Shown here: piece by piece, positions 1-19,119 of the stretch
Numbering within the stretch: position 1 is the first letter of the stretch
Layout: every line of letters starts with the position of its first letter
Source of the DNA: a virus
Taxonomy: Duplodnaviria > Heunggongvirae > Uroviricota > Caudoviricetes
Virus record (IMG/VR): IMGVR_UViG_2529292923_000023
DNA length: 19,119 nucleotides
Reading direction: 5' to 3' (one strand)
Translations under genes and position numbers: made by a program
The notes under the pieces: generated by a model
The model's input: the letters and a program-made list of their open reading frames with translations, nothing else
The model's database searches: none
What the model was told of the DNA's origin: nothing

Positions 1-1260
1 ATGCCAAAACTCACAGATATGCAGATCCGCGCATGGATAAAGGCGGGAGACAGATTTGATGGCAAGGCAGACGGCAACGGCCTTTATATTTGCTACCCCA
101 AAAACTACACAGCCCCGTTCTGGCGATTCCGCTATAAGCTCGCAGGAAAGCAGCGGGCTATGGTTATAGGCTCTTACTCCGAACTGTCACTATCAAAAGC
201 CAGAGAAACAGCAAAAGAGCTGTCAGCCAGAGTTGCTCTTGGCTATGACGTAGCAGCAGAGAAACAGGAACGAAAAGCTGAAGCACTGGCAAAAATGGAG
301 GCTGAGAAAAACGCCATGCGTGTTTCAGATCTGGCCTCCGAATACTTCGAGCGCCAGATACTTCCGAGATGGAAACATCCCGATATCCTTCGCCGGAGAA
401 TTGATAAGGATATTAACCCCTGCATTGGGCATATGAAGGTAGAGGACGTTAAGCCACGCCACATTGACGACATGTTGAAAGGTATCGTTGACCGAGGAGC
501 ACCAACGATAGCAACAGATGTATTACGCTGGACACGCCGTATCTTTGACTACGGGATAAAACGCCACGCTCTGGAGATAAACCCTTGTTCAGCGTTTGAA
601 GTATCTGATGCTGGTGGTAAAGAGGTTTCCCGCGACCGTTGGCTAACTCGCGATGAGCTTATCAGGCTATTCGAGGCTATGCGCACCGCAAAAGGATTCA
701 GCCGCCAGAACGAACTGACATTTAAGCTATTGCTGGCACTATGCGTTCGTAAGATGGAGTTATGCGCCGCACGATGGGAAGAGTTTGATTTAGATGGTGC
801 GGTATGGCATTTGCCGGAAGAACGCAGCAAAAACGGAGACCCTATTGATATACCTCTACCTTCCCCAGCCGTTGAATGGTTGAGAGAGCTACACACCTTT
901 TCATGTAATAGCGCATGGGTGCTTCCAGCCAGGAAGATGCAAAACAGAATGATCCCACATATTCAGGAAAGCACTTTGCCCGTAGCACTGGCTAAGGTTC
1001 GCGCCGAAATGCCGGATGTGCCTAATTTCACGATTCACGACTTCCGACGCACCGCACGTACTCATTTAGCAGCGTTGGGTGTTGATCCTGTCGTGGCGGA
1101 ACGATGCCTCAATCATCGCATTAAGGGCGTAGAGGGGATTTATAACCGCCATCAGTATTTTGATGAGCGTAAAGCAGCACTGGCACAGTGGGCTGATCTG
1201 CTGGTGGCACTGGAAAGCGGAAAAGACTACAACGTAACGCCTCTCAGAAGGGCGAACTAA
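1..1260 (+). CDS. int: Tyrosine recombinase/integrase, P4-type (window begins at its start codon; attL/tRNA target would lie upstream, outside the window)
   Basis: 419-aa ORF. N-terminal arm-binding region typical of P4-family integrases (LTDMQIRAW...GNGLYI...WRFRYKLAGK). C-terminal catalytic region with HDFRRTARTHL (His-x-x-Arg) and a Tyr near the C-terminus (GIYNRHQY). Followed by an AlpA/Vis gene as in P4-like elements. Confidence 0.9.
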   Translation: MPKLTDMQIRAWIKAGDRFDGKADGNGLYICYPKNYTAPFWRFRYKLAGKQRAMVIGSYSELSLSKARETAKELSARVALGYDVAAEKQERKAEALAKMEAEKNAMRVSDLASEYFERQILPRWKHPDILRRRIDKDINPCIGHMKVEDVKPRHIDDMLKGIVDRGAPTIATDVLRWTRRIFDYGIKRHALEINPCSAFEVSDAGGKEVSRDRWLTRDELIRLFEAMRTAKGFSRQNELTFKLLLALCVRKMELCAARWEEFDLDGAVWHLPEERSKNGDPIDIPLPSPAVEWLRELHTFSCNSAWVLPARKMQNRMIPHIQESTLPVALAKVRAEMPDVPNFTIHDFRRTARTHLAALGVDPVVAERCLNHRIKGVEGIYNRHQYFDERKAALAQWADLLVALESGKDYNVTPLRRAN

Positions 1261-1355
1261 CTGAATAGATTGAGCCTAGCTCGACGGGGCGAAAAGCGGG
1301 AAGCCTTACCGCCTGGCTCAATCACAAAATAAGGCGCAGCGTAAAAGGTGACGCA

Positions 1356-2321
1356 ATGAACGACTCTCATGAAACAACAGTGGTGCATAGAAATTTATGG
1401 CAGGAATCAGGTATTCCACCTTTGGACTACTGCACGATAGAGCGAGCATCAAAATTATTAAATTGTGAAATTGATGATATATGGCATTGGAAAGATAGAC
1501 TACATATAGACTTTTATGTCTATGCTGACTTTCTTGATTTCATTGAATCTGATGCCACCATCCACTTCAAAAAAGATGCTAATTTTATAACTGATTTATT
1601 ACTTATGTACCCAGAAGAAGTAAGGTTTACATTTCCTTTTCTTATTACCAGCGCAAGCAACGAAGTTTATATCCCAGCATCTGAAAGCGGTGCTTATGAG
1701 CTATTTTATGCACATAAACCACTGACAGTTGAAGACAGCGACAATAAAAATGTTTTTGAACAAATTGGCAAAAACTCTTTTATTGTAAGAAAATCAATTG
1801 CATGTGGATTGTTGCGTGTACGCGGTAGAACAACACGACATTATCATTCACAAGAATGTGGAGAACCATATGTGCGACTTGAAGCAACATTTGATTGTGA
1901 TCTATATAAATTCAAAATGCAAAGTTCCCAAATTCACCTGAGTAGCCTGTCAGATAAAAACATTTATATAACAAAGGCTGATTTAGAATACCTTCATGAC
2001 GCAAAGGTTAATGGAAGTTTTGACGCAGCTAAGAGCAAAAAACGATACGAAATGGCGGTAGAACAGGAACTAATACCTGAAATAAAAAATAGCAACCATA
2101 ATGCCGAGAGACATGCTGAAAACAGGGAAAAACTTTTCAAATCTGCAATATATCTTTTGTCAAAGTATCCTGATGAATGCCGTGGCAAAAAGAAAGAAAT
2201 AAGCCCTGAGAAGTGGCGGGATTGCATAGTGGCTCATAAAGACGAAATTCCACCGTTAGCAATCACAAATGAAGATGTGATTTTGAGACACTTACGTGCT
2301 GCCGCCAACGGTAAGGGGTAG
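1356..2321 (+). CDS. Hypothetical protein, AT-rich cargo gene (321 aa), unknown function
   Basis: Intact ORF with AAGGTG Shine-Dalgarno 8 nt upstream of ATG. Visibly lower GC than flanking int and alpA. Followed by a strong intrinsic terminator, so monocistronic. No recognisable motif; placement between int and alpA matches the position of accessory/cargo genes in P4-like islands. Confidence 0.6.
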   Translation: MNDSHETTVVHRNLWQESGIPPLDYCTIERASKLLNCEIDDIWHWKDRLHIDFYVYADFLDFIESDATIHFKKDANFITDLLLMYPEEVRFTFPFLITSASNEVYIPASESGAYELFYAHKPLTVEDSDNKNVFEQIGKNSFIVRKSIACGLLRVRGRTTRHYHSQECGEPYVRLEATFDCDLYKFKMQSSQIHLSSLSDKNIYITKADLEYLHDAKVNGSFDAAKSKKRYEMAVEQELIPEIKNSNHNAERHAENREKLFKSAIYLLSKYPDECRGKKKEISPEKWRDCIVAHKDEIPPLAITNEDVILRHLRAAANGKG

Positions 2322-2337
2322 AGTAGCTAACTATTCA

Positions 2338-2365
2338 GGCACAGTATCATTACTGTGCCTTTTTA
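2338..2365 (+). terminator. Rho-independent terminator after the 321-aa cargo gene
   Basis: GGCACAGTA-tcatt-TACTGTGCC perfect 9-bp stem followed by TTTTTATT. Confidence 0.6.
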
Positions 2366-2435
2366 TTGTTCATATATGTACAGATACTTCCTCCCGTAAC
2401 GAAGCAACAACTATCGCTAAGAGGTTACGGGAAGC

Positions 2436-2639
2436 ATGAACACCGACACTATTCCTACAAAAGGCTATATCAGACGCTTCCGCCTGGCTGAATTGCTGGG
2501 CGTTAGTGTATCCACCATCGACCGTAAAGTAAGAAACGGTTCACTACCACGTCCGGTAAAGCTGGGAGAAAAAATAACTGCGTTTGATGCGGTTGAGATT
2601 CACAACTGGCTGGCAGAACGCCGCGGGAAGGTGGCCTGA
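2436..2639 (+). CDS. alpA: AlpA/Vis-family transcriptional regulator / excisionase-like HTH protein
   Basis: 67 aa; the motif LPRPVKLGEKITAFDAVEIHNWL matches the AlpA/P4 Vis family signature (FPRPVKI..R.VGW...I..WL). Position directly after the integrase-proximal cargo gene. An 8-bp inverted repeat (CCCGTAAC at 2393-2400, GTTACGGG at 2424-2431) lies in the leader. Confidence 0.8.
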   Translation: MNTDTIPTKGYIRRFRLAELLGVSVSTIDRKVRNGSLPRPVKLGEKITAFDAVEIHNWLAERRGKVA

Positions 2640-3070
2640 TGGAAAAGAAAAACCGCCCATTACAGGCGGCTAATTCAGATATTCGCGTATCTGATGTTAC
2701 GCCCCTGACAAAATCCCTTCAAGCACCAAAGCGCACACCGAAAAAGCATCGTGCCAGAGTCTATATGCTGCGTACTGGTATAGAGGGATGGACAGAAAAT
2801 GACATTCTTCGCTACTGCCGTCTGTCTTCTGGTCGTAACTATGCAACAGAGTTAGAACGCCAGCTTGGAATCACTCTGGAGCGTATCGACGAAAAGAATC
2901 CTGATGGTATCGGAACACACCTTCGCTACCGTTTCTCCTGCCGTGGTGATGTTCTGAAAGTGATCACTCATGTTAACCATCTTGCGAACATAAATGATCA
3001 CAACGGACTTTCTCAGCAGGAAATTGCCGACATTCTGAAACTCTACCCGAACGCGTTTAACGCCGCCTAA
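2639..3070 (+). CDS. Hypothetical protein (143 aa)
   Basis: ATG overlaps the alpA stop (ATGA-type coupling); same-strand operon context; no recognisable motif. Confidence 0.55.
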   Translation: MEKKNRPLQAANSDIRVSDVTPLTKSLQAPKRTPKKHRARVYMLRTGIEGWTENDILRYCRLSSGRNYATELERQLGITLERIDEKNPDGIGTHLRYRFSCRGDVLKVITHVNHLANINDHNGLSQQEIADILKLYPNAFNAA

Positions 3071-3916: not shown

Positions 3917-4088
3917 GCCAACAGGAACACCACAACCACAAAAACGCTACAAAGATGCCCACGGAGCACTCGTTACTGTCGAAAGCGTGTCTCACAACCG
4001 AGTGACGTTTTATCGCGACGGGTATCAATCGCCATGCGTACAACCGCTGGCGCGTTTCATGAAGGAGTTCGCGGAGGTTAACCAATGA
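3909..4088 (+). CDS. Small hypothetical protein (59 aa), possibly a DUF4222-like phage protein
   Basis: In-frame ATG at 3909 overlapping the upstream stop (ATGTCTAA); the ORF track's longer 3822 start lies inside the upstream gene. Motif VTVESVSHNRVTFYRDGY is reminiscent of small prophage DUF proteins. Confidence 0.5.
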   Translation: MSKPTGTPQPQKRYKDAHGALVTVESVSHNRVTFYRDGYQSPCVQPLARFMKEFAEVNQ

Positions 4089-5152
4089 TACCCGTCCAGA
4101 AGAAGACATTTTCACTGGCTGGTATGTCGCCAAAATCCAGCAATATGACGGCAAAGTCAGGCATTAATACAGCAGATACAAGCAAAGTTTATCATTTGCT
4201 GGTGGTCGGAACGGATGCCTTAACCATACCAGAAATCTCGGGCGATGATATTAGCATTGAGAAGGTCAGCGGCTGCGCCAGAAAATTTCTGGTCGTAGAT
4301 GATGTCTTCCGCTCGCGTAGTGACTCCACAAAAACCTTCATCCGCGCGCGTGACGTTAACGAAATGAGCGCGATGTACTGTGCATCTGGTGCTTCCAATA
4401 GCGAGTTTTCGGAGTCCATAAAAAAGAGCTTGCCGTTATGCGGCAACACGGTTTATGGTTATAAGGCACCTCATAAAACGGGTGCCGGGATTGGCGTCCT
4501 GGTAAATCGAATGGCGACATATGACGCGCCGAGCGTCTTTTTTTATGTCGTAGGTCTGACTCACCCATTTTTTGGGCGTTGGTGTATAATCCAGCGCCTT
4601 TGTCAATCAATGGTGGCTCAGGCAGGGGCTTCTTCGGAAGCGCCGGTATCCATTCGAGCCGGTTACGCCAACCCTGTCTGGGCTACCACCAGCGAAATTG
4701 GCGTTTCCGGTGGTAGCGTTACATGCTATCGAATGGAGGCTGCCACATGCTGGCTACTACCCCTACCCAAAAACCGCAATTTATCTGGATTATCGCCGCA
4801 GTTCGCCGCGATTGCCCGACAATTACCGCCAGAATTCATCATATTGCTGCCGAGTCTGAACGCGATGCTCGCCGTTCTCTGGTGCGCGATCACGTCTGCT
4901 TTTTTGCTGGTCGTATCCGCATGGAGGTGGCACATGATTAAAACCTACGATGTGCATATGGATCCCCTCGAACGCACAAGCCAGATCATCACACTGACAG
5001 AAGTGATTAACGACATTCTGGTGAGCAACTCTCCCTCACGAGACGAAAGACTGAAGGCGTTACTCGCGATATTGGATCTCGCCGTTCGTGACGTTCATTT
5101 CCTGCTGGAAGGTGGCGAAATGCCAGTAAAAACGGGGGCAACCAATGAATAA
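4085..5152 (+). CDS. Long stop-free ORF (355 aa), probably composite: a possible N-terminal coding part, an internal likely non-coding structured region, and a real small 3' gene (MIKTYD..., start 4934)
   Basis: ATGA overlap with the upstream stop supports the 4085 start. Between about 4560 and 4930 this frame uses rare codons (CTA CTA CCC CTA, TTA, CGA, AGG) and gives W/C-rich implausible peptide, while a different frame (4747-4941) has good codon usage and a GGAGG Shine-Dalgarno. The ATG at 4934 also has a GGAGG Shine-Dalgarno. True gene structure is uncertain. Confidence 0.3.
4747..4941 (+). CDS. Small hypothetical protein (64 aa)
   Basis: GGAGG 7 nt upstream of ATG; enterobacterial-like codon usage (CGC, CTG, GAT, GCC); stop overlaps the next small gene's start region. 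Confidence 0.35.
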   Translation: MLATTPTQKPQFIWIIAAVRRDCPTITARIHHIAAESERDARRSLVRDHVCFFAGRIRMEVAHD

Positions 5153-7128: not shown

Positions 7129-9871
7129 TCTTATCCGTCAGGTTATCAGTGCGTCTGAAAACAACTGGCCTCATGTGCTGGGCTGCCTGAACATAAATGT
7201 CCCTGACTCTCCGCGCCGTCATGCTCCCTGCCCTGCATGTGGGGGCAAAGATCGATTCCGGTTCGATGACAACGGGCGCGGTAGCTTCATCTGTAATCAG
7301 TGCGGCGCTGGTGATGGGCTGGATTTAATTAAACGCGTAAATAACTGCGACACAACAGAGGCGGCGCTGCTTGCCGCTGATGTTCTGGGTATTGATTACC
7401 GGACAACGGAAACACCAGAAGCCACCAGCCAGAAACGGGAACAACTGGAAACCGAGCGCCAGCAACGCGAACAGGAGCGCCTGAAAAGGGCGGAGAAGGA
7501 CGAACAACAAAGACGGGATACGTTTTCCCGTCAGTTTGATGACATGCGCAGAAAGGCTGTAAACGGCAAATCTGATTATCTGGTTGCGAAAGGGGTAGGT
7601 GATTTTACATTCCCCGTGTTGCCCGATGGATCTCTGTTGCTGGCGCTGGTGGATAAATCCGGCGCAGTCACAGCAGCACAGACTATTACCTCACATGGTG
7701 AAAAAAGACTCCTGACAGGTTCAGCAAAGCGGGGGGCATATCACGCCATAAACGCACCAGAAACAACACAGAGCATCTTAATCGCAGAAGGGCTGGCAAC
7801 GGCATTATCTGCCCATTTAATTCGTCCAGAGGCGCTGACAGTGGCGGCGATTGATGCCGGGAACCTGTTATATGTCGCCCAGGTACTGCGGGATAAATTT
7901 CCTTCAGCACAAATCATCATTGCTGCGGATAACGACCACAGCGAAGGAAGACAAAACACGGGGAGAATAGCAGCAGAAAAAGCAGCTTTATCTGTTTCTG
8001 GATGGGTGGCATTACCCCCGACAGGTCACAAAGCAGACTGGAATGATTACCACCAAAAACACGGCATTAAATGCGCCACAGAAGCGTTCAATAAGTCAAT
8101 GTACCAACCACAGGGTAATGGCGTGAAACAGGAGCCACAGACCATTGAGGGAAGCGATTTTAAGGTTATGGATACCGACCCACTGAAACCAAGAATAGAA
8201 AGCCGCGAGGATGGTATTTATTGGGTATCTCCGAGAGCTGACAGCCAGAGTGGAGAAATCATCAATAACGAAAGCTGGTTATGTTCTCCGTTAAGCGTTA
8301 TCGGTACTGGCAGAGACGATAAAGACCAGTATCTCATTCTTCGCTGGCTGTCGTTTGGTTCTGAAACGCCGACAACCGCTGCCATTCCACTGGCTGATAT
8401 TGGTGAACGTGAAGGATGGCGCACACTTAAAGCTGGTGGGGTAAATGTCACGACCAAAAGCAGCCTCAGAGCAATACTGGCAGACTGGCTACAACGCAGT
8501 GGCTCTCGTGAATTGTGGCGTGTTGCTCATGCCACTGGCTGGCAATGCGGAGCGTACATCATGCCTGATGGGGAAATCATCGGAACACCTGAAAATCCTG
8601 TGCTGTTCAGCGGGAGAAGCTCAGCCGCAGCCGGATATACCGTCTCAGGGAGCGCGCAAAGCTGGCGTGATAACGTGGCGCGTCTGGCCTTTGGTAACTA
8701 TTCAATGATGACCGGGATCGGCGCAGCACTGGCAGCACCATTGATTGGGCTGGTGGGCGCTGACGGGTTCGGCATTCATTTCTATGAGCAGTCGAGCGCA
8801 GGTAAGACCACCACGGCAAACGTGGCGAGCAGCTTATACGGCAACCCTGATTTACTGCGGCTGACGTGGTACGGAACCGCGCTGGGGCTGGCAAATGAGG
8901 CCGCCGCCCACAATGACGGACTAATGCCGCTTGATGAAGTTGGTCAGGGCGCTGATCCTGTCAGCGTTTCACAGTCTGCCTATGCGTTATTTAACGGTGT
9001 AGGGAAACTGCAAGGCGCTAAAGATGGTGGAAACCGGGATCTAAAACGCTGGCGTACAGTGGCAATCAGCACCGGAGAAATGGATTTAGAAACATTTATC
9101 GCTACTTCCGGGCGAAAAACCAAAGCCGGGCAACTGGTGCGACTGCTGAATATTCCGTTGAGTAAAGCAGTACGCTTTCACGATTACCAGAACGGAAAAC
9201 AGCACGCAGACGCACTGAAAGACGCTTACCAGCATCACCATGGCGCAGCCGGGCGTGAGTGGATTAAATGGCTGGCAGACCACCAGCAACAGGCTATTAA
9301 AACTGTTCGTGATTGCGAAAGCAGATGGAGAAGCCTGATCCCACCCGATTATGGTGAGCAGGTTCACCGTGTAGCCGCGCGATTTGCCATTCTGGAGGCC
9401 GCATTGTTGTTAGGCGAGGTTGTAACAGGCTGGGATGCTCAGACATGCCGTGATGCGATACAGCACAGCTATAACGCATGGTTGCGCGAGTTCGGCACAG
9501 GTAACAAAGAGCATCAGCAGATTATTGAACAAACGGAGGCATTTCTTAATGCCTATGGGCTTAGCCGTTTTGCACCATTTCCATACAGCCCGGCAGATTT
9601 GCCCATCAAAGATTTAGCCGGATACCGTCAGCGTGGAGAACATGACGAAAGCCCAATGATTTTCTACACATTCCCGGCCACATTTGAAAAGGAGATCGCA
9701 TGTGGTTTCAACGCAAAACAGTTTGCTGAAGTGTTGAAAAAAGCCGGGATGCTAACCCCACCAAACAGCGGTCGTGGATACCAAAGAAAATCACCACGTA
9801 TTCAGGGACGACAAATAAACGTTTATGTACTCAATTACCAGCCAGGAGATTATAACTCATCTGAAGAATGA
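7115..9871 (+). CDS. P4 alpha-like primase-helicase (zinc-ribbon + Toprim + DUF927/D5-type P-loop NTPase)
   Basis: 918 aa from ATG 7115 (the ORF-track start at 7112 is a GTG). N-terminal CPACGG...CNQCG zinc-binding motif. Toprim-like acidic motifs (IAEGLATA; IIIAADNDH). Walker A (SSAGKTTTANV) and Walker B-like (LMPLDEVG) in the C-terminal half. An iteron-type origin lies directly downstream. Confidence 0.9.
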   Translation: MRNIDLIRQVISASENNWPHVLGCLNINVPDSPRRHAPCPACGGKDRFRFDDNGRGSFICNQCGAGDGLDLIKRVNNCDTTEAALLAADVLGIDYRTTETPEATSQKREQLETERQQREQERLKRAEKDEQQRRDTFSRQFDDMRRKAVNGKSDYLVAKGVGDFTFPVLPDGSLLLALVDKSGAVTAAQTITSHGEKRLLTGSAKRGAYHAINAPETTQSILIAEGLATALSAHLIRPEALTVAAIDAGNLLYVAQVLRDKFPSAQIIIAADNDHSEGRQNTGRIAAEKAALSVSGWVALPPTGHKADWNDYHQKHGIKCATEAFNKSMYQPQGNGVKQEPQTIEGSDFKVMDTDPLKPRIESREDGIYWVSPRADSQSGEIINNESWLCSPLSVIGTGRDDKDQYLILRWLSFGSETPTTAAIPLADIGEREGWRTLKAGGVNVTTKSSLRAILADWLQRSGSRELWRVAHATGWQCGAYIMPDGEIIGTPENPVLFSGRSSAAAGYTVSGSAQSWRDNVARLAFGNYSMMTGIGAALAAPLIGLVGADGFGIHFYEQSSAGKTTTANVASSLYGNPDLLRLTWYGTALGLANEAAAHNDGLMPLDEVGQGADPVSVSQSAYALFNGVGKLQGAKDGGNRDLKRWRTVAISTGEMDLETFIATSGRKTKAGQLVRLLNIPLSKAVRFHDYQNGKQHADALKDAYQHHHGAAGREWIKWLADHQQQAIKTVRDCESRWRSLIPPDYGEQVHRVAARFAILEAALLLGEVVTGWDAQTCRDAIQHSYNAWLREFGTGNKEHQQIIEQTEAFLNAYGLSRFAPFPYSPADLPIKDLAGYRQRGEHDESPMIFYTFPATFEKEIACGFNAKQFAEVLKKAGMLTPPNSGRGYQRKSPRIQGRQINVYVLNYQPGDYNSSEE

Positions 9872-9893
9872 GCTTCTTCATGTGCGTAGAAAA

Positions 9894-10007
9894 GGTGTTG
9901 GTTCAGTTGGTTCAGTTGGTTCAATTTGTAAAGAGTATTGTTTTATAAGGATTTTATTCTTTTTATTGAACCAACACTGAACCAACAACACGGTATTTTG
10001 AACCAAC
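9894..10007. repeat. Iteron cluster 1 (putative ori): 3 tandem GTTGGTTCA (9897-9923), AT-rich spacer, 3 TGAACCAAC (9967-9975, 9978-9986, 9999-10007)
   Basis: Direct reading of the repeats; classic iteron/AT-rich unwinding-element architecture immediately 3' of the primase-helicase gene. Confidence 0.75.
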
Positions 10008-10327
10008 ACAATGTGACTGAATTGATGCGCACAACACCTGGCTGGCATCAGAGAGTGTTTTACGAGACTTTCGTAAAATCCTGTGTACAAGGGCGTGACG
10101 TTTTTGAAAGTGAGCACTACGAAATTTTCGTAGTTCAAAAAACAGCCTCTGAGAAGTTGTTATGCCTGTTCAGCAAACCATCCGCATAGCTGATCGCGAA
10201 TCAAATTACCAATGGAGCCAGAAGCAAGGGCAGAACTGAAAAGCGCCTGCCGTGAAGAGTAATGCGATACCATAAATATAGTTTTTAGAGTCCATAAAAA
10301 ACCTGTCAAAACCTGACACACAGAACG

Positions 10328-10360
10328 ATGCCACCAGCTACTGAGCGGTGGCATTTTTTT
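10328..10360 (+). terminator. Rho-independent terminator (likely ends the primase/ori transcript)
   Basis: ATGCCACC-agctactgagc-GGTGGCAT stem followed by TTTTTTT. Confidence 0.6.
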
Positions 10361-10422
10361 GTGCTATTTGTTTCATATTTTGCAATTACGATGATGAATA
10401 TTGCGATTTGTGAAACCATAAT

Positions 10423-10442
10423 AACTGTTGTTTTATACAGTT
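10423..10442. promoter_or_regulatory. LexA-like SOS box (AACTGTTGTTTTATACAGTT) overlapping the putative promoter of the downstream cassette
   Basis: CTGT-N8-ACAG with AT-rich spacer and the same symmetric AACTGT/ACAGTT flanks as the dinD box at 18095-18114; sits 14 bp upstream of the 53-aa ORF start, just after the terminator. Confidence 0.4.
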
Positions 10443-10455
10443 CTAAGGGGGCGTT

Positions 10456-10617
10456 ATGGCTATTTCAGTAAAGCCGGTATTGATAAGTGAGAAGCAAATG
10501 GAAGCGATAAAGAAAATTCAGGAAGAGCAGCGTAAAAAATCAGGAATTGGAGTAGCGCCAACTCTGCATGAAATTGCACGAGGGTTAATAGATAAGGCGC
10601 TGGCAGGCTGTATGTGA
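10456..10617 (+). CDS. Small protein (53 aa), possible ribbon-helix-helix (Arc/CopG-like) regulator or antitoxin; below the ORF-track size cutoff
   Basis: AAGGGGG Shine-Dalgarno 5 nt upstream of ATG. Predicted beta-strand (PVLIS), helix (EKQMEAIKKIQEEQ), Gly turn, helix (TLHEIARGLIDKAL) pattern. First gene of the cassette. Confidence 0.45.
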   Translation: MAISVKPVLISEKQMEAIKKIQEEQRKKSGIGVAPTLHEIARGLIDKALAGCM

Positions 10618-10633
10618 AAATGGATGGCATCGC

Positions 10634-11095
10634 ATGGAACTAAAATTTATTGATAACCCTGTGCGATTACAGGCCTTTCTTAACGAGCCAGGCAATACCG
10701 AAAATATTGTTGAGCCGGGGCACACGTACTACATCAAGCCTGATGCGGTATATCTCGGCATCTACGAAGGATTAGTGCTGGCTGGCGTTCATGAAGTGCG
10801 TAACTTCTGGCATAGCGTTGTTGAATGCCATGCGGTGTACGACCCCGGATTCCGTGGTGAATATGCACTGCAAGGGCATCGATTATTCTGCAAATGGCTT
10901 CTCGAAAACTCACCATTCCTTAACAGCATCACCATGGTTCCTGACACCACCAAATACGGACGGGCAATTATCCGTTTGCTTGGCGCTACCCGTGTTGGTC
11001 ACCTTGATGATGCTTATATCAGATGTGGTAAACCCGTCGGCGTAACGCTTTATCAGTTAACTCGGCAACAATATAAGGAATTCAGCGAATGTTAA
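10634..11095 (+). CDS. Hypothetical protein (153 aa), Cys/His-containing, unknown function
   Basis: ORF 16 bp after the 53-aa gene; overlaps the next gene start (coupled); no recognisable motif. Confidence 0.6.
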   Translation: MELKFIDNPVRLQAFLNEPGNTENIVEPGHTYYIKPDAVYLGIYEGLVLAGVHEVRNFWHSVVECHAVYDPGFRGEYALQGHRLFCKWLLENSPFLNSITMVPDTTKYGRAIIRLLGATRVGHLDDAYIRCGKPVGVTLYQLTRQQYKEFSEC

Positions 11096-11766
11096 TTACC
11101 CATATAGCTCATAAACATCTCAATCGTGCCGTATACGAAAAAGGCGGTGATGGTGGTGCCTCTAAAGCTCAGGCGAAGGCCCAGCAGCAGGCAATTGATT
11201 TGCAGCGCGAGCAGTGGAATACGGTGATGAATAATCTCAAGCCGTATGCAGAAGTCGGATTGCCTGCTTTACAACAACTGCAAGGACTGATGACTCTGGA
11301 AGGGCAGAATAAAGCCGCGAATGATTTCTTTGGTTCTGGTTTATATAAAACACAGGCAGATCAGGCCCGTTATCAGAACCTTGTCTCAGCAGAAGCTACC
11401 GGGGGGCTTGGCTCAACAGCTACCAGTAACCAGTTATCTTCCATTGCGCCCATGCTTTATAACAATTGGCTCAGTGGGCAAATGCAAAATTATGGAAACC
11501 TGCTAAATGTCGGGATGAATGCGGCATCAGGGCAGGCAACGGCAGGGCAAAACTACGCCAATAATACCGGACAACTCTTGCAGGGGCTTGGCGCTATTCG
11601 TGCAGGTCAGGCGCAGCAGCCATCCAGTCTTGCGCGTGGTATTGGTGGGGCAGCATCAGGCGCTTTAGCGGGTGCGCAACTTGGTTCCGTTGTTCCTGGA
11701 ATAGGAACTGCGGCCGGCGCTATTGGTGGTGGGCTTATTGGTCTTGTTGGGGGGCTTGGATTCTAA
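11089..11766 (+). CDS. Hypothetical Gln/Ala/Gly-rich protein (225 aa) with glycine-zipper C-terminus; possible phage ejection/internal virion protein (P22 gp7-like by size and position)
   Basis: No cysteine; low-complexity Q/A/N/G composition; C-terminal GxxxG-rich hydrophobic tail (GAIGGGLIGLVGGLGF); translationally coupled to neighbours. Confidence 0.65.
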   Translation: MLITHIAHKHLNRAVYEKGGDGGASKAQAKAQQQAIDLQREQWNTVMNNLKPYAEVGLPALQQLQGLMTLEGQNKAANDFFGSGLYKTQADQARYQNLVSAEATGGLGSTATSNQLSSIAPMLYNNWLSGQMQNYGNLLNVGMNAASGQATAGQNYANNTGQLLQGLGAIRAGQAQQPSSLARGIGGAASGALAGAQLGSVVPGIGTAAGAIGGGLIGLVGGLGF

Positions 11767-13187
11767 TGGCGACATGGCAACTTGGCGGGCTGCCTAGCAT
11801 GGCACCGCAAAATGATAATGCTCCTCGTTCTTCCGTTCCTCAGCCTGTGCAGTATCAGCAGCAGCCAAACGTAGGTTTAATGGCGCTACAGGGGCTAAGA
11901 GGCGTTGCTGAGATTAATCAGCAGGCACGTCAACAACAGCGTAAATCAGAGTTTCAGAAAGCATATGCCGGGGCTTTTGAGTCTGGAGACAGAAACAAAA
12001 TGCGCAGTCTTATTTCTGAGTATCCAGAAGAATTTGAAAGCGTTCAGAAAGGGATGGGCTTTATTGATGACGACCAGAGAAATTCTATTGGTCATCTTGC
12101 GACTAGTGCTCAAATCGCATCTTCGCTCGGAACTGGGGCATTTGGAAAATTCATAGCAGATAACGAAGATGAAATGCGTCGCTTGGGAATTTCTCCTGAG
12201 TCTGTTGCCGAAATGCATGTTAATGATCCACAGGGATTCCAGCGGCTTGCTGGTAGTATGGCACTGTTTTCTCTCGGTCATGAGAAGTATTTCGATATCA
12301 AAGATCAAATGGAAGGTCGGGATATTGAGCGAGGCAGGCTGGCAGAGACAATCCGCAGCAATCAGGCTGGCGAAGCACTTCAGGCGAGAGGGCAGGATAT
12401 TAGCCGAGCAAATGCGTTAACGTCAGCATATGCACCAACAGCAGCAATGCAGAATTACAATCAGTACGCTCAAATGTTAAAGGCGGATCCAGAGGGGGCG
12501 GCGGCATTTGCGGCAGCGGCTGGAATTAATACAAACGCCAAAAAATTAATGAGTGTTAGAGAAAACGATGATGGCACTGTCACAAAATACTACACAGACG
12601 GAAGTGAAGAGCAGGGAAAACTAAACCAGCCAATATCTGGAGATGGGTTTCGTCCAATAGCTTTGCCAACAGCCCAAAAGATCATGGAAAAGTCGCCAGA
12701 AGGGGCTAAAAAAGCTGCTGGATTTGCATACAGGGTTAGGGATGCTCTTGATTCAATAGATACACTGAAAGACCAGCTTAGCCCACAGCGAGTGGCGATC
12801 ATTAATAATGCTTTGGGTAATGGGACGCTGGCTAACTTAACGCTCAGCCCAACAGAGCAGCAATACGTTGTTAATGCTAATGACGCAATAATGGCAATAC
12901 TCCGTCAGGAAACAGGGGCAGCTATCGTACCTGCTGAAATGTCAAAATATTATCAAATGTATTTCCCTCAGCCTGGCGACTCCACAAAAACCATTGATAC
13001 CAAGCGCCGGAAGATGGAAAACCAGTTCAATTCGCTGAAAGCTGCTTCTGGTCGAGCTTATGATGCTTTGCGGGTTATTTCAGCAGTTGACAGAGGAACG
13101 TCTTCTTCGTCGCAGACATTGCCGCAATCTGAGCAGGTATCACAGCCAGCAGCCAGCAGTAACTTTTCTTCACTATGGGGTGATTAA
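11766..13187 (+). CDS. Hypothetical Gln/Ala-rich protein (473 aa); possible phage ejection/internal virion protein (P22 gp20-like by size and position)
   Basis: TAATG start overlap; no cysteine in 473 residues; Q-rich N-terminus; long ORF with good codon usage. Confidence 0.7.
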   Translation: MATWQLGGLPSMAPQNDNAPRSSVPQPVQYQQQPNVGLMALQGLRGVAEINQQARQQQRKSEFQKAYAGAFESGDRNKMRSLISEYPEEFESVQKGMGFIDDDQRNSIGHLATSAQIASSLGTGAFGKFIADNEDEMRRLGISPESVAEMHVNDPQGFQRLAGSMALFSLGHEKYFDIKDQMEGRDIERGRLAETIRSNQAGEALQARGQDISRANALTSAYAPTAAMQNYNQYAQMLKADPEGAAAFAAAAGINTNAKKLMSVRENDDGTVTKYYTDGSEEQGKLNQPISGDGFRPIALPTAQKIMEKSPEGAKKAAGFAYRVRDALDSIDTLKDQLSPQRVAIINNALGNGTLANLTLSPTEQQYVVNANDAIMAILRQETGAAIVPAEMSKYYQMYFPQPGDSTKTIDTKRRKMENQFNSLKAASGRAYDALRVISAVDRGTSSSSQTLPQSEQVSQPAASSNFSSLWGD

Positions 13188-15292
13188 TGGCTAAAGCATG
13201 GAAAGATGTTATCGCCTCTCCACAGTATCAGGCGTTAGCACCAGAACAAAAAGCGCAGGCTCAGGAGCAATACTTCAATGAAGTCGTTGCCCCGCAAGCC
13301 GGAGAAAGTGTAGAGCAGGCTAAGCAGGCTTTTTATGCTGCCTATCCACTACCATCAACGAATGAAATAGACCGATCCCAATCAGCAACTCAAAATATTC
13401 AACATACATCATCTGATAATTCTCTTGCGTCAGGGTATGCAAAGTTAGCTACTCAGCAAAGAGAGGGGCTTGAGCGTTCAGCAGAACAGGGAGCCAGTCT
13501 TGGGGCTGCGATGCGCGATGCTATAACAGGCGAAAGCCGAATGACTTCAGAGATGGAGAGACTGCAAAATGTCGCCTCTGCCCCAGAATTGAACTCACTA
13601 AGCATGGATGCCCTAAAGGCTGGATGGTCCCAACTTTTCGGCTCTGACGCGTCTCAGGAAAAGATTCTTCAGGGAATGGGGGCGACATTAAGGCAGGATG
13701 AGAAGGGGAATACTATCGTTTCTCTGCCATCAGGTGATTATGCCCTGAACAAGCCGGGTTTATCACCGCAAGACCTGACTTCGTTTCTTGCTAATGCGTT
13801 GGCGTTTACACCAGCGGGCAGGGCTGGAACGGTGCTTGGTGCCATAGGAAAATCAGCAGCTACAGATTTAGCACTACAGGGAGCCACCAGCCTTGCTGGT
13901 GGAGAAGATATTGATCCGTTACAAACGGTAATTTCTGCTGGCATTGGTGGTATTGGTAAGGGGCTGGAAAATACAGCGAGTGCGGTTTCGAGGGCTGTTC
14001 GTGGTGATATGTCGCCTGAAGCAAAGGCTGCTGTCGACTTTGCATCGGAAAGAAATCTGCCGTTAATGACCAGTGACATGCTGAAAGATAAAACCTTTAT
14101 GCAGAGTCAGGCTCAGACATTAGGCGAAAGAGTTCCTTTTTTTGGAACCGGTAAGAATCGGCTGAATCAACAACAAGCACGAGAAAATTTAGTCAGAACA
14201 TTTAGCGATGGTCTGGGTGGCATTTCTGATAAACAGCTTTATGAATCTGCGACTAAAGGGCAACAAAAATTCATTGAGGCAGCAGGAAAGCGATATAACC
14301 GCATAATTGACGCTATGGGGGATACCCCTGTCGATCTCTCAAACACGGTAAAAGCTATCGACAATCAGATTGCCGTGTTAAGCCGCCCGGGCAAATCTCA
14401 GGATAGAGCCGCGGTAAAAGTCTTGCAGCAATTTAAAGACGATATCACCAGCGGACCAAATGACCTGCGCCTGGCGAGGGAAAACAGAACCGATCTTCGA
14501 AAGCGATTTATTGCGTCATCTGACACTGTTGATAAAGATACGCTCCAGAAAGCCAGCGATATTATCTACAAGGCATATACGGCGGATATGAAAAAAGCCG
14601 TAGCCAAAAATCTTGGAGCAGACGAAGCCATTAATATGGCAAGGGTTGATCGCTCATGGTCTAAATTCAATAACATGATGGGAAGAACGCGCGTTCAAAA
14701 GGCAATAGCCAGCGGCAAGGCCACGCCTGAGGATGTAACAAAACTCGTTTTTAGCCAAAGCCCATCAGAACGTTCTCAGCTTTACAGGCTTCTGGATGAC
14801 AATGGTAGGCAAAACGCACGAGCAGCCATAGTTCAGAATGCTGTAGATAAGGCGACTGATCCGTCTGGAAATATCAGTGTTGAGAAGTTTATTAATGCGT
14901 TACACCGGAACAGGAAGCAATCAGCAACTTTCTTTAAAGGCGTACATGGGAAGGAACTGGACGGCGTTATTAAATACCTCAACGATACAAGACACGCGGC
15001 AAAAGCGAACGTTCAAAACTTAAATGGTCAGCAGCTTTATGGATTGTTAGTTGGTGGTGGCATCATAAACGCAGCAGTATTAGCGGGGATGCTAAAAACG
15101 GCTGCGTTTGTTGTTCCTGCTGCTGGTGCCGTAGGCGGAGCAGCGAAGGCATACGAAACCCCTGTTATACGAAATGCCTTGTTACGTCTGGCAAATACGC
15201 CAAAAGGTAGCACAGCATATGACAGAGCGATCAGTACGGTCACACAATCGCTCACCAGAGTCGCACAGGCATCACAAAAAGAAGCTCAATAA
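13187..15292 (+). CDS. Hypothetical Gln/Ala-rich protein (701 aa) with hydrophobic Gly/Ala-rich C-terminal segment; possible phage ejection/internal virion protein (P22 gp16-like by size and position)
   Basis: TAATG start overlap; no cysteine in 701 residues; C-terminal LLVGGGIINAAVLAGMLKTAAFVVPAAGAVGGAAKAY membrane-like segment. Confidence 0.75.
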   Translation: MAKAWKDVIASPQYQALAPEQKAQAQEQYFNEVVAPQAGESVEQAKQAFYAAYPLPSTNEIDRSQSATQNIQHTSSDNSLASGYAKLATQQREGLERSAEQGASLGAAMRDAITGESRMTSEMERLQNVASAPELNSLSMDALKAGWSQLFGSDASQEKILQGMGATLRQDEKGNTIVSLPSGDYALNKPGLSPQDLTSFLANALAFTPAGRAGTVLGAIGKSAATDLALQGATSLAGGEDIDPLQTVISAGIGGIGKGLENTASAVSRAVRGDMSPEAKAAVDFASERNLPLMTSDMLKDKTFMQSQAQTLGERVPFFGTGKNRLNQQQARENLVRTFSDGLGGISDKQLYESATKGQQKFIEAAGKRYNRIIDAMGDTPVDLSNTVKAIDNQIAVLSRPGKSQDRAAVKVLQQFKDDITSGPNDLRLARENRTDLRKRFIASSDTVDKDTLQKASDIIYKAYTADMKKAVAKNLGADEAINMARVDRSWSKFNNMMGRTRVQKAIASGKATPEDVTKLVFSQSPSERSQLYRLLDDNGRQNARAAIVQNAVDKATDPSGNISVEKFINALHRNRKQSATFFKGVHGKELDGVIKYLNDTRHAAKANVQNLNGQQLYGLLVGGGIINAAVLAGMLKTAAFVVPAAGAVGGAAKAYETPVIRNALLRLANTPKGSTAYDRAISTVTQSLTRVAQASQKEAQ

Positions 15293-17179: not shown

Positions 17180-17467
17180 ATGATAAAGGACAGGAAAGCT
17201 GAAGAGCTGGAGTCAAAAGGGCTATACCGGAGAGCTGCCGCACGATGGGCAGAAGTCATGATGCTGGCAGATGGCGATAAAGAACGTGAACATGCAGCAA
17301 ACAGACGCTCTGAATGTATCCGTAAGGCGGCACGCCCACCAGCAACTACAGACAGATTCGGAGATTTAAGACAGGCAGTTAAGCGGACTCATTCGGCTCT
17401 TGGTATGGATGAGGAAGCGAGAGGGTACTTCAGGCGTTATCGCGATAAAGATTGCCAGAGACAGTAA
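17180..17467 (+). CDS. PerC-family transcriptional regulator-like protein (95 aa)
   Basis: N-terminal AEELESKGLYRRAAARWAEV matches the PerC/Pch family signature (ELE.KGLWRRAA.RW); GAGAGG Shine-Dalgarno; a TATAAT hexamer at 17161-17166 just downstream of the iterons. Confidence 0.65.
   Translation: MIKDRKAEELESKGLYRRAAARWAEVMMLADGDKEREHAANRRSECIRKAARPPATTDRFGDLRQAVKRTHSALGMDEEARGYFRRYRDKDCQRQ

Positions 17468-18157: not shown

Positions 18158-19119
<962 letters not shown>

What the first reader, a model, noticed from the sequence alone, without database searches (positions are those of the whole stretch)
1356..2365. AT-rich monocistronic cargo gene wedged between integrase and alpA
The 321-aa ORF has clearly lower GC than its neighbours, its own Shine-Dalgarno, and a strong terminator, and it sits at an integrase-proximal position where P4-like islands carry variable accessory genes, often anti-phage. 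The protein has no motif I can recognise.
Basis: partly seen in the sequence, partly recalled or inferred. Interest (0 to 1): 0.5.

Follow-up and report, generated by a model that had tools for sequence, protein, structure and literature searches.

The report
Swappable cargo gene in satellite's int–alpA slot
The AT-rich 321-codon gene is real. It occupies an exchangeable cargo slot between the integrase and alpA genes of an E. coli phage-satellite island, where a conserved structured RNA leader supplies the ribosome site and start codon for whichever gene sits there. Its product belongs to a large uncharacterised protein family whose function, most likely binding a phage protein, remains untested.

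Summary
ORF 1356-2321 (321 aa) lies between a P4-type integrase and alpA, has the lowest GC in the window (0.37 against 0.47-0.50) and is followed by a conserved terminator. "Monocistronic" and "its own SD" do not hold. No promoter-like site lies between int and the ORF. The Rfam int-alpA RNA (1269-1335), the SD and the ATG are backbone sequence shared by unrelated occupants.

The slot is variable. E. coli islands at the same yicC site carry four sequence-unrelated gene families there, each with its own terminator. One strain with identical int DNA and identical AlpA has a version of this gene whose middle domain is only 40% identical.

The gene belongs to a family of about 603 clusters with no Pfam, NCBIfam, PDB-sequence or family-wide PADLOC match. 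Every informative context is int-X-alpA. The protein has an acidic AlpA/MerR-like winged-helix N-domain, a hypervariable β-rich middle and a C-terminal 75 aa under strong purifying selection. No enzymatic domain was found.

My best reading is an exchangeable satellite cargo protein that binds a phage or other mobile-element protein stoichiometrically. The main rival is an Stl-like helper sensor that controls alpA. Anti-phage activity is untested. I rate it a new variant of a known kind, interest 0.55.

The parts
1..1260 (+). P4-type tyrosine integrase. It forms the left flank of the slot and is probably the first gene of an int-X operon.
   Evidence: Pfam Arm-DNA-bind_3, Phage_int_M and Phage_integrase. 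It is 86-92% identical across genera while the slot gene diverges. The island sits between yicC and dinD.
1269..1335 (+). int-alpA RNA motif (Rfam RF02996), a three-way junction. It is a conserved leader upstream of whichever gene occupies the slot.
   Evidence: 60.6 bits against a gathering score of 35.8. The motif precedes X-family, DUF6387 and 293-aa occupants alike. 99% of cells are paired and 6 pairs change on both sides, with 0 of 500 shuffles reaching that. MFE -32.4 kcal/mol, z = -2.9.
1339..1358 (+). Mini-hairpin GCGT/ACGC with the SD (AAGGTG, 1345-1350) in its loop, followed by the ATG. This is the last conserved backbone sequence before the variable cassette.
   Evidence: Alignment A8 is conserved up to and including the ATG for unrelated occupants and diverges immediately after it. 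Salmonella and Pectobacterium have the stem as ATGC/GCAT. I read the stem changes from the alignment by eye and did not count them with a tool.
1356..2321 (+). Slot gene X (321 aa), an uncharacterised family.
   Evidence: ORF. 48 close homologues. 603 clusters at E<=1e-3 among 1.84 billion representatives. No Pfam, NCBIfam, PHROG or PDB-sequence match. AF2 model pLDDT 81.6, pTM 0.68.
1413..1529 (+). X N-domain (aa ~20-58), a MerR/Xis/AlpA-type winged helix with net charge -4.
1530..2093 (+). X middle region (aa 59-246). It is β-rich and hypervariable, with a disordered loop at aa 96-114.
2094..2318 (+). X C-domain (aa 247-321), helical, under strong purifying selection.
   Evidence: 75-91% aa identity across E. 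coli, Salmonella, Enterobacter, Pantoea and Pectobacterium, with dS saturated and omega 0.02-0.15. pLDDT 92-98.
2337..2370 (+). Intrinsic terminator of the cassette: a 10-bp stem, 4-nt loop and T-run.
   Evidence: Scan. The hairpin is kept by compensatory changes in other X alleles. Unrelated occupants bring different terminator hairpins.
2393..2431 (+). Inverted repeat or hairpin in the alpA leader (CCCGTAAC, 23 nt, GTTACGGG) that encloses the alpA SD. It is the first conserved backbone sequence to the right of the cassette.
   Evidence: Conserved whatever the occupant. 95% of cells are paired, 2 pairs change on both sides and several pairs are U-G; this is weak covariation, with 13 of 500 shuffles as high. 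Fold z = -5.0 for 2322-2445.
2436..2639 (+). alpA, the right flank of the slot. [quoted passage not shown]
   Evidence: PF05930 at 2.2e-08. Its role in EcCIMP1 and EcCICFT073 comes from PMC11773190 and PMC6092414.

Best explanation
Gene X is an exchangeable accessory cassette, consisting of an ORF and its own terminator. It sits in a fixed expression slot of an EcCIMP1-like/P4-like phage satellite integrated next to yicC.

The backbone provides the int gene, the int-alpA structured RNA leader, the SD and the ATG. The cassette is therefore probably transcribed together with int in the integrated state and is insulated from alpA by its terminator. Cassettes and alleles are swapped between related islands by recombination in the conserved flanks.

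The product is a soluble, acidic, non-enzymatic protein in three parts:
- an AlpA/MerR-like winged-helix N-domain that lacks the usual basic DNA-contact residues;
- a fast-diverging β-rich middle domain;
- a conserved helical C-domain.

I infer that it acts by stoichiometric protein binding. The variable middle would recognise a diversifying phage or rival-element protein. The conserved ends would engage a constant partner or oligomerise. The net effect would be interference with, or defence against, phages.

Shown: the slot architecture, its variability, allele replacement, the domain layout and the selection pattern. Inferred: co-transcription with int, protein binding and the anti-phage outcome.
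For: Slot and cassette boundaries:
- Conserved sequence runs up to the ATG on the left and resumes about 45 nt before the alpA ATG on the right, for unrelated occupants.
- The int-alpA RNA precedes X-family, DUF6387 and 293-aa genes.

Variability:
- Census of 5,426 complete E. coli genomes: X321 in 76, X316 in 41, X281 in 37, the 293-aa family in 21, the 216-aa cassette in 110 and DUF6387 in 3-4.
- The non-family occupants give no hit to the family HMM.

Swapping:
- ETEC1721 has int dS = 0.00 and the same AlpA accession, but the X middle domain is 40% identical with dS 0.92.
- The same X lineage in Enterobacter sits beside an integrase only 64% identical, at a different attachment site.

Foreign composition:
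- All occupants have GC 0.30-0.43 against 0.50 for the backbone.

Protein:
- No enzymatic or known domain.
- pI 4.7-6.1, and the N-domain is neutral to acidic.
- The only fold hits are MerR/Xis/AlpA winged helices.
- The conserved-variable-conserved pattern comes with omega 0.02-0.15 in the C-domain.

Precedent:
- 6 of 8 randomly chosen unknown loci in P4 hotspots were anti-phage (PMC13586616).
- Tai proteins are hotspot-encoded binders of phage tail proteins (PMC11364771).
Against: - No phenotype data exist.
- There is no family-wide match to any PADLOC model.
- Middle-domain omega stays below 1, so positive selection is not demonstrated.
- The family is strictly tied to the int-X-alpA position across deep divergence and three attachment sites. 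That is also what a core regulator would show.
- No promoter was mapped, so expression in the integrated state is assumed.
- EcCIMP1, the experimentally studied relative, has only a roughly 67-aa gene in this slot. Its superinfection-immunity phenotype was not mapped to that gene.
Confidence: 0.45

Rival explanations
1. X is the satellite's helper-phage sensor, functionally analogous to SaPI Stl. Through its AlpA-like N-domain or its conserved C-domain it holds alpA expression, AlpA itself or Int in check. Its hypervariable middle domain binds a helper-phage protein and releases the block. Allelic diversity would then reflect helper specificity.
For: - Every informative context of the family is int-X-alpA, including distant members (E about 1e-12 to 1e-20) and three attachment sites: yicC, next to a PQQ dehydrogenase gene, and next to der.
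- The N-domain has the same fold class as AlpA and Xis.
- The layout of conserved ends around a variable centre resembles Stl.
- The literature states that a global repressor in Gram-negative PICIs is 'unclear' and that alpA is induced by the helper through an unknown route (PMC6092414; PMC11773190).
Against: - Islands with the same AlpA protein accession and the same alpA leader carry unrelated genes in the slot: DUF6387, the 293-aa family or the 216-aa cassette. X is therefore dispensable for the module.
- X is co-directional with alpA and separated from it by a terminator, not divergently transcribed as stl is.
- The putative recognition helix has no basic residues (xDDLLxxA) and the N-domain charge is -4, against +6 for AlpA.
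- The island already carries a P4-type CI/C4 immunity RNA.
Confidence: 0.2
2. X is a host-directed accessory regulator or fitness factor, in the way the PerC/RgdR-type regulators carried by Gram-negative PICIs are. It would use its winged-helix domain to alter host gene expression and would have no role in phage conflict.
For: - The N-terminal winged helix has a MerR/AlpA-type fold.
- Gram-negative PICIs commonly carry regulators as cargo, and this island has a PerC homologue at 17180-17467.
- The gene is probably expressed from the integrated island.
Against: - The HTH is acidic and has no basic recognition helix.
- Extreme allelic turnover of the middle domain on an otherwise identical backbone is more typical of antagonistic co-evolution than of a regulator with fixed host targets.
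- No DNA-binding family model matches. HTH_17 hits 1 of 103 members at E = 0.005.
Confidence: 0.12
3. X is an anti-defence or establishment factor, for example an acidic DNA or protein mimic. It would protect the incoming satellite or its helper from host restriction or other immunity.
For: - The family is acidic, with pI 4.7-6.1. The middle domains of many alleles carry net charge -17 to -22.
- The gene lies near one end of the element, next to int.
Against: - The window's own allele is only mildly acidic, with the middle domain at -5.
- There are no homologues in 50,697 phage records.
- Co-expression with int implies expression in the established state rather than at entry.
Confidence: 0.07

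Closest known systems
Accessory and defence hotspots of phage satellites and prophages: the P4 psu-int hotspot, P2 hotspots and PICI accessory regions (Rousset 2022, PMC9122126; PMC13586616; PMC10085698)
   Same: Conserved flanks with interchangeable, compositionally foreign genes in related elements. Cargo is carried by a helper-dependent island. The region between the integrase and the regulator is already named as a PICI accessory location.
   Different: Here the slot is a single-gene site. A conserved structured RNA leader supplies the SD and the start codon, and the left breakpoint falls at the ATG. None of the occupants matches a known defence family. One protein family dominates the slot across genera.
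EcCIMP1, an E. coli PICI mobilised by the P22-like phage Kapi1 (PMC11773190)
   Same: The backbone gene set is the same: int, alpA directly downstream, an antirepressor, an Ash-family ORF, a primase, 'DNA transfer' genes and PerC. A gene lies between int and alpA in both.
   Different: EcCIMP1 integrates between proA and yagU. Its slot gene, EcCIMP1_002, is only about 67 aa and had been mis-annotated as UvrB. I did not compare the two islands at sequence level.
SaPI/PICI Stl (Rpr) master repressors
   Same: The gene sits next to int. It has an N-terminal HTH-type domain followed by a highly divergent region, which in Stl binds helper-phage proteins.
   Different: X is co-directional with the regulated operon and terminator-insulated from it. 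Its HTH is acidic. Unrelated genes replace it in islands with the same AlpA. No sequence or whole-protein fold similarity was found.
MerR / Xis / AlpA (HTH_17) winged-helix domains
   Different: Sequence models do not match. The putative recognition helix lacks basic residues. The domain is followed by a β-rich domain, not a MerR coiled coil.
Tai (tail assembly inhibition) proteins of prophages, P4-like satellites and PICIs (PMC11364771)
   Same: Small, non-enzymatic, highly divergent single proteins encoded in mobile-element hotspots that act by binding a phage structural protein. This is the mode of action I propose for X.
   Different: Tai homologues are mostly phage-borne, whereas X has no tblastn hit in 50,697 phage records. 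In PICIs, tai lies downstream of pri, not between int and alpA. I made no direct sequence comparison with Tai proteins.
int-alpA RNA motif (Rfam RF02996)
   Same: The element at 1269-1335 is a full-length match above the gathering score.
   Different: Rfam types it as an sRNA gene. Here it sits as a 5' leader immediately upstream of the SD of interchangeable cargo ORFs. I did not find that context described in the searched literature.

Membership tests
Satellite/prophage accessory (cargo) hotspot | Conserved flanking genes with non-homologous content in related elements | tested here: met
   Four sequence-unrelated occupant families lie between near-identical int and alpA at the yicC site. Census.
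Satellite/prophage accessory (cargo) hotspot | Atypical base composition relative to the backbone | tested here: met
   GC 0.369 and GC3 0.29 against 0.50 for the backbone. All occupants have GC 0.30-0.43.
Satellite/prophage accessory (cargo) hotspot | Autonomous moron-type unit with its own promoter and terminator | tested here: inconclusive
   Each occupant has its own terminator. No promoter-like site was found, and the SD and ATG belong to the backbone. The promoter scan is a crude consensus match.
Satellite/prophage accessory (cargo) hotspot | Dispensable for the element's own life cycle | not testable with these tools
   Inferred only from replacement by unrelated genes in islands with the same AlpA. 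A deletion experiment is needed.
Known anti-phage defence families (PADLOC-DB v2) | Significant, family-wide match to a defence-protein model | tested here: not met
   The only hit is PDC-S31 at E = 0.002 (15.6 bits), non-collinear, for 1 of 103 members. The other slot occupants give none.
Known anti-phage defence families | Protection against phage when expressed | not testable with these tools
   A plaque or EOP assay is required.
SaPI Stl-like master repressor | Encoded next to int and divergently transcribed from the operon it represses | tested here: not met
   The gene is adjacent to int, but it is co-directional with alpA and separated from it by a terminator.
SaPI Stl-like master repressor | N-terminal DNA-binding HTH | tested here: inconclusive
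   The fold is a winged helix. However, net charge is -4 and the putative recognition helix has no basic residues.
SaPI Stl-like master repressor | Present in every element of the lineage, because it is essential for quiescence | tested here: not met
   Unrelated genes occupy the slot in islands with the same AlpA accession and the same alpA leader.
SaPI Stl-like master repressor | Derepression through binding of a helper-phage protein | not testable with these tools
   Biochemistry or genetics is needed.
MerR / HTH_17 / AlpA-Xis winged-helix superfamily (N-domain only) | Winged-helix fold | tested here: met
MerR / HTH_17 / AlpA-Xis winged-helix superfamily (N-domain only) | Match to the sequence profiles PF12728, PF05930 or PF00376 | tested here: not met
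   The query has no hit. HTH_17 matches 1 of 103 members at E = 0.005.
Rfam RF02996 int-alpA RNA (leader at 1269-1335) | Covariance-model score above the gathering threshold, with structure supported by covariation | tested here: met
   60.6 bits against 35.8. 99% of cells paired and 6 pairs changed on both sides, 0 of 500 shuffles as high.
Gram-negative PICI (EcCIMP1-like) as the host element | int, alpA and primase in order, about 15 kb, no capsid, tail or lysis genes, helper-dependent mobilisation | tested here: inconclusive
   int, alpA and a TOPRIM/DUF927 primase are present in order. The island also carries P22-type ejection-protein genes. Mobilisation cannot be tested here.

The most novel reading that the evidence does not exclude
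The X family could be the missing helper-sensing component of Gram-negative PICI/P4-like satellites. In this reading it is an acidic pseudo-AlpA protein whose swappable middle domain recognises a helper-phage protein and whose conserved C-domain gates AlpA or Int. The other slot occupants would be non-homologous analogues, as unrelated Stl proteins are in SaPIs.

A related reading concerns the leader. The int-alpA RNA, together with the shared SD and ATG, could be a dedicated cis-regulatory platform that makes any inserted ORF helper- or state-responsive.
Probability: 0.2. Interest if true: 0.8.

Novelty: new variant of a known kind. Interest (0 to 1): 0.55.

Why it matters
Satellite and prophage hotspots have been productive sources of new anti-phage systems. 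This one is a compact single-gene slot, present in several hundred of the 5,426 complete E. coli genomes searched. All its occupants are uncharacterised. That gives a short, well-delimited list of candidates to test: four X alleles, the 293-aa family, the 216-aa cassette and DUF6387.

Two further points follow. First, the work assigns a concrete genomic role to an orphan Rfam motif. The int-alpA RNA sits as a shared 5' leader supplying the SD and ATG for interchangeable cargo genes. Second, it defines a family of about 600 clusters with a conserved-variable-conserved architecture, which lends itself to domain-swap experiments on specificity.

If the minority reading is right, the family would bear on an open question: how Gram-negative PICIs sense their helper phage.

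Tried and rejected
- **Sequence libraries.** Pfam, PHROGs, NCBIfam and PADLOC on the query, on 103 or 149 family members and on the other slot occupants gave nothing usable. The single PDC-S31 hit (E = 0.002) is non-collinear and not shared by the family, so I rejected it.
- **PDB sequence profile search.** No hits even at E = 10.
- **tblastn against phages.** No match.
- **tblastn against plasmids.** The hits were a mislabelled chromosome, two Klebsiella circles of about 22 kb that look like excised satellites, and a Klebsiella chromosomal protein sharing only the N-terminal 40 aa.
- **The search for related loci.** The distant alignment A3 failed because it has no conserved stretch. Alignment A2 returned only 5 loci.
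- **A shared N-domain in the 293-aa family and DUF6387.** They look similar by eye, but the N-domain HMM gives only 2-4 bits, so I rejected the idea.
- **A C-domain zinc site (C275/C290/H294).** C290 is not conserved in the 281-aa allele, so I dropped it.
- **C-domain conservation as a side effect of conserved DNA, such as an alpA promoter.** Rejected, because dS is saturated while dN is 0.06-0.24.
- **Identical 3' ends joined to different N-termini.** This was my own earlier reading, and it was an artefact. The '>=99%' class includes matches to the 48-nt alpA leader alone. I have withdrawn it.
- **Literature.** I found no description of this protein family or of the leader's cargo context.

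Full report
**1. The observation**

The window is part of an E. coli chromosomal island inserted between yicC and dinD. ORF 1356-2321 (+) encodes 321 aa.

Its left neighbour is a P4-type tyrosine integrase at 1-1260. Its right neighbour is AlpA at 2436-2639.

The ORF's GC is 0.369 and its GC3 is 0.29. int is 0.50 and alpA is 0.505. The ORF lies about 3 SD below the mean of all 966-nt windows, and no non-overlapping window is lower.

An SD (AAGGTG) ends 5 nt before the ATG. A 10-bp hairpin with a T-run follows at 2337-2360.

The gene is real. It has 48 close homologues. Its last 75 codons have omega 0.02-0.15 with saturated synonymous divergence.

**2.

No promoter-like site lies between int and the ORF. 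In sister islands the slot gene starts 12-19 nt after the int stop or overlaps it. "Monocistronic" is therefore unsupported, and an int-X operon is more likely.

The spacer between int and X is not anonymous. Positions 1269-1335 are a full-length match to Rfam RF02996, the int-alpA RNA (60.6 bits against a gathering score of 35.8). It forms a three-way junction with 99% of cells paired and six pairs changed on both sides.

**3. The slot**

I aligned islands from the same yicC site. The sequence is conserved through the RNA motif, a small hairpin that presents the SD in its loop, and the ATG itself. It diverges from the first codon onward.

On the right, conservation resumes about 45 nt before the alpA ATG. 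It resumes at an inverted repeat, CCCGTAAC/GTTACGGG, that encloses the alpA SD. Each occupant brings its own terminator.

The occupants fall into two groups. Members of this family occur as 321-, 316-, 281- and 307-aa versions. Three sequence-unrelated genes also occur: a 293-aa family, a 216-aa cassette and a DUF6387 protein. The apparent N-terminal resemblance of the unrelated genes is not significant.

The Rfam motif precedes X-family, DUF6387 and 293-aa genes alike.

| Occupant | Complete E. coli genomes (of 5,426) |
|---|---|
| X321 (this allele) | 76 |
| X316 | 41 |
| X281 | 37 |
| 293-aa family | 21 |
| 216-aa cassette | 110 |
| DUF6387 | 3-4 |

All occupants have GC 0.30-0.43.

Strain ETEC1721 has int DNA identical to the window (dS 0.00) and the same AlpA accession. 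Its X middle domain is nevertheless only 40% identical, with dS 0.92. In Enterobacter, the same X lineage sits next to an integrase only 64% identical, at a different site.

Content therefore changes by replacement, not by in-situ drift. The slot is a genuine cargo site.

**4. The protein family**

A profile search of 1.84 billion cluster representatives finds 603 clusters at E <= 1e-3 and 163 at E <= 1e-10. Nearly all the listed hits are 270-350 aa.

None of 103 members has a significant match to any Pfam family, and none of 149 matches any NCBIfam model. There is no PDB sequence relative. There is no homologue in 50,697 phage records.

Every context with enough flank is int-X-alpA. This holds in E. 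coli, Salmonella, Pantoea, Pectobacterium and Enterobacter. It also holds for distant members next to a PQQ-dehydrogenase gene.

The alignments show three parts:
- a moderately conserved N-terminal region of about 40 aa;
- a hypervariable middle, 19-24% identical between alleles while Int is 86-92% identical;
- a C-terminal 75 aa that is 75-91% identical across genera.

An AF2 model built on a 149-sequence alignment reaches pLDDT 81.6. The N- and C-domains score above 90.

The proteins are acidic, with pI 4.7-6.1. The N-domain carries net charge -4, against +6 for AlpA. Its putative recognition helix has no basic residues. Classical DNA binding is therefore doubtful.

**5. Mechanism**

Several features point to a stoichiometric binder:
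- there is no catalytic domain;
- the ends are conserved and the centre is variable;
- alleles are replaced on otherwise identical backbones;
- the gene sits in a satellite cargo site.

In this model the middle domain tracks a diversifying partner, most plausibly a phage protein. The conserved ends provide a constant function.

Three precedents make this reasonable. PICI accessory genes occur between int and the regulator (PMC10085698). Most randomly chosen unknown loci in P4 hotspots proved to be anti-phage (PMC13586616). Tai proteins act by binding tail components (PMC11364771).

I put this reading at 0.45.

The main rival, at 0.2, is an Stl-like helper sensor that controls alpA. It fits the strict synteny and an acknowledged gap in Gram-negative PICI biology (PMC6092414; PMC11773190). 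Four things weaken it:
- unrelated genes occupy the slot in islands with the same AlpA and the same alpA leader;
- the gene is co-directional with alpA and insulated from it by a terminator;
- its HTH is acidic;
- the island already has a P4-type CI/C4 RNA.

Host-directed regulation (0.12) and anti-defence (0.07) are not excluded.

**6. Comparison and novelty**

The element resembles the experimentally characterised PICI EcCIMP1. Both have int, alpA, an antirepressor, an Ash-family ORF, a primase, DNA-transfer genes and PerC. EcCIMP1's helper is the P22-like phage Kapi1. Its slot gene, however, is a roughly 67-aa ORF.

Cargo hotspots in satellites are known. Three things are new here, as far as the searched literature shows:
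- the single-gene slot architecture, with a structured RNA leader that supplies the SD and ATG;
- a dominant, uncharacterised family of about 600 clusters in that slot;
- the complete absence of known defence families among the occupants.

I rate it a new variant of a known kind, interest 0.55.

**7. Caveats**

- Function is wholly inferred.
- The promoter scans are crude.
- The census uses megablast and so gives lower bounds.
- Covariation for the alpA-leader hairpin is weak.
- One of my interim readings was wrong and has been withdrawn.

Noticed in passing
window 4466-4543 and 4606-4693 (+), inside ORF 4085-5152: Rfam isrK (67 bits) and the C4/P4-CI-type antisense RNA (79.5 bits) lie inside the ORF annotated as 'Ash family protein'. 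The Pfam Phage_ASH match (aa 124-232, nt 4454-4781) coincides with them. The island therefore has a P4-type RNA immunity region, and the 'Ash' protein call may partly be a translation of RNA genes. The same RNA pair occurs in sister islands.
   Followed up: partly
window 10634-15292 (+): There is a cluster of P22-type virion and ejection-protein genes: DUF2824 (PHROG head morphogenesis), gp7, an injectosome translocase (Pfam Inj_translocase) and a 701-aa DNA-transfer protein. A sister record annotates the last of these as gp16-family. The satellite has no capsid, tail or lysis genes. This suggests it supplies its own ejection proteins to a P22-like helper, as with the EcCIMP1/Kapi1 pair.
   Followed up: partly
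window 2393-2431 (+): A conserved inverted repeat or hairpin (CCCGTAAC, 23 nt, GTTACGGG) encloses the alpA SD and ends 4 nt before the alpA ATG. It is kept whatever the slot occupant, with U-G pairs and two changes on both sides. It could be a translational control element or a protein-binding site. No conserved alpA promoter is visible in the roughly 45 nt of shared upstream sequence.
   Followed up: partly
window 17180-17467 (+): A PerC-family regulator (PF06069, 3e-33). The EcCIMP1 homologue was reported to silence LEE1 expression in Citrobacter rodentium.
   Followed up: no
window 18451-19113 (-): An IS21 IstB-like ATPase ORF (PF01695, 7e-101) lies at the right end of the window. An insertion sequence has landed in or next to the island.
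   Followed up: no
window 9600-10600: A second AT-rich stretch (GC about 0.40-0.42) lies between the primase gene and the DUF2824 gene. It contains only short ORFs and could be a replication origin or another cargo or regulatory region.
   Followed up: no
L026/L027/L029 1366-2486 (E. coli islands at the same site): The commonest alternative occupant (110 genomes) is a 216-aa ORF that overlaps the int stop codon. About 470 nt with no annotated gene follow it before alpA. The int-alpA RNA is absent in these islands.
   Followed up: partly
L032 (CP031371.2, Klebsiella pneumoniae, 21,845-bp circular 'plasmid'): This record carries a distant X homologue (23% identity), alpA, an antirepressor, DUF4222 and the isrK and C4 RNAs. 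It looks like an excised, circularised satellite assembled as a plasmid.
   Followed up: partly
L033 5995-6816 (Klebsiella chromosomal fragment labelled as a plasmid): A 273-aa hypothetical protein shares only the N-terminal region of about 40 aa with X (51% identity). It lies between housekeeping genes with no int or alpA nearby. The N-domain therefore also occurs outside satellites.
   Followed up: no
window 2639-3070 (+): The gene immediately after alpA (143 aa, 'PM1773 family' in some RefSeq records) overlaps the alpA stop codon. It is conserved in most of these islands and has no Pfam or PHROG match.
   Followed up: no
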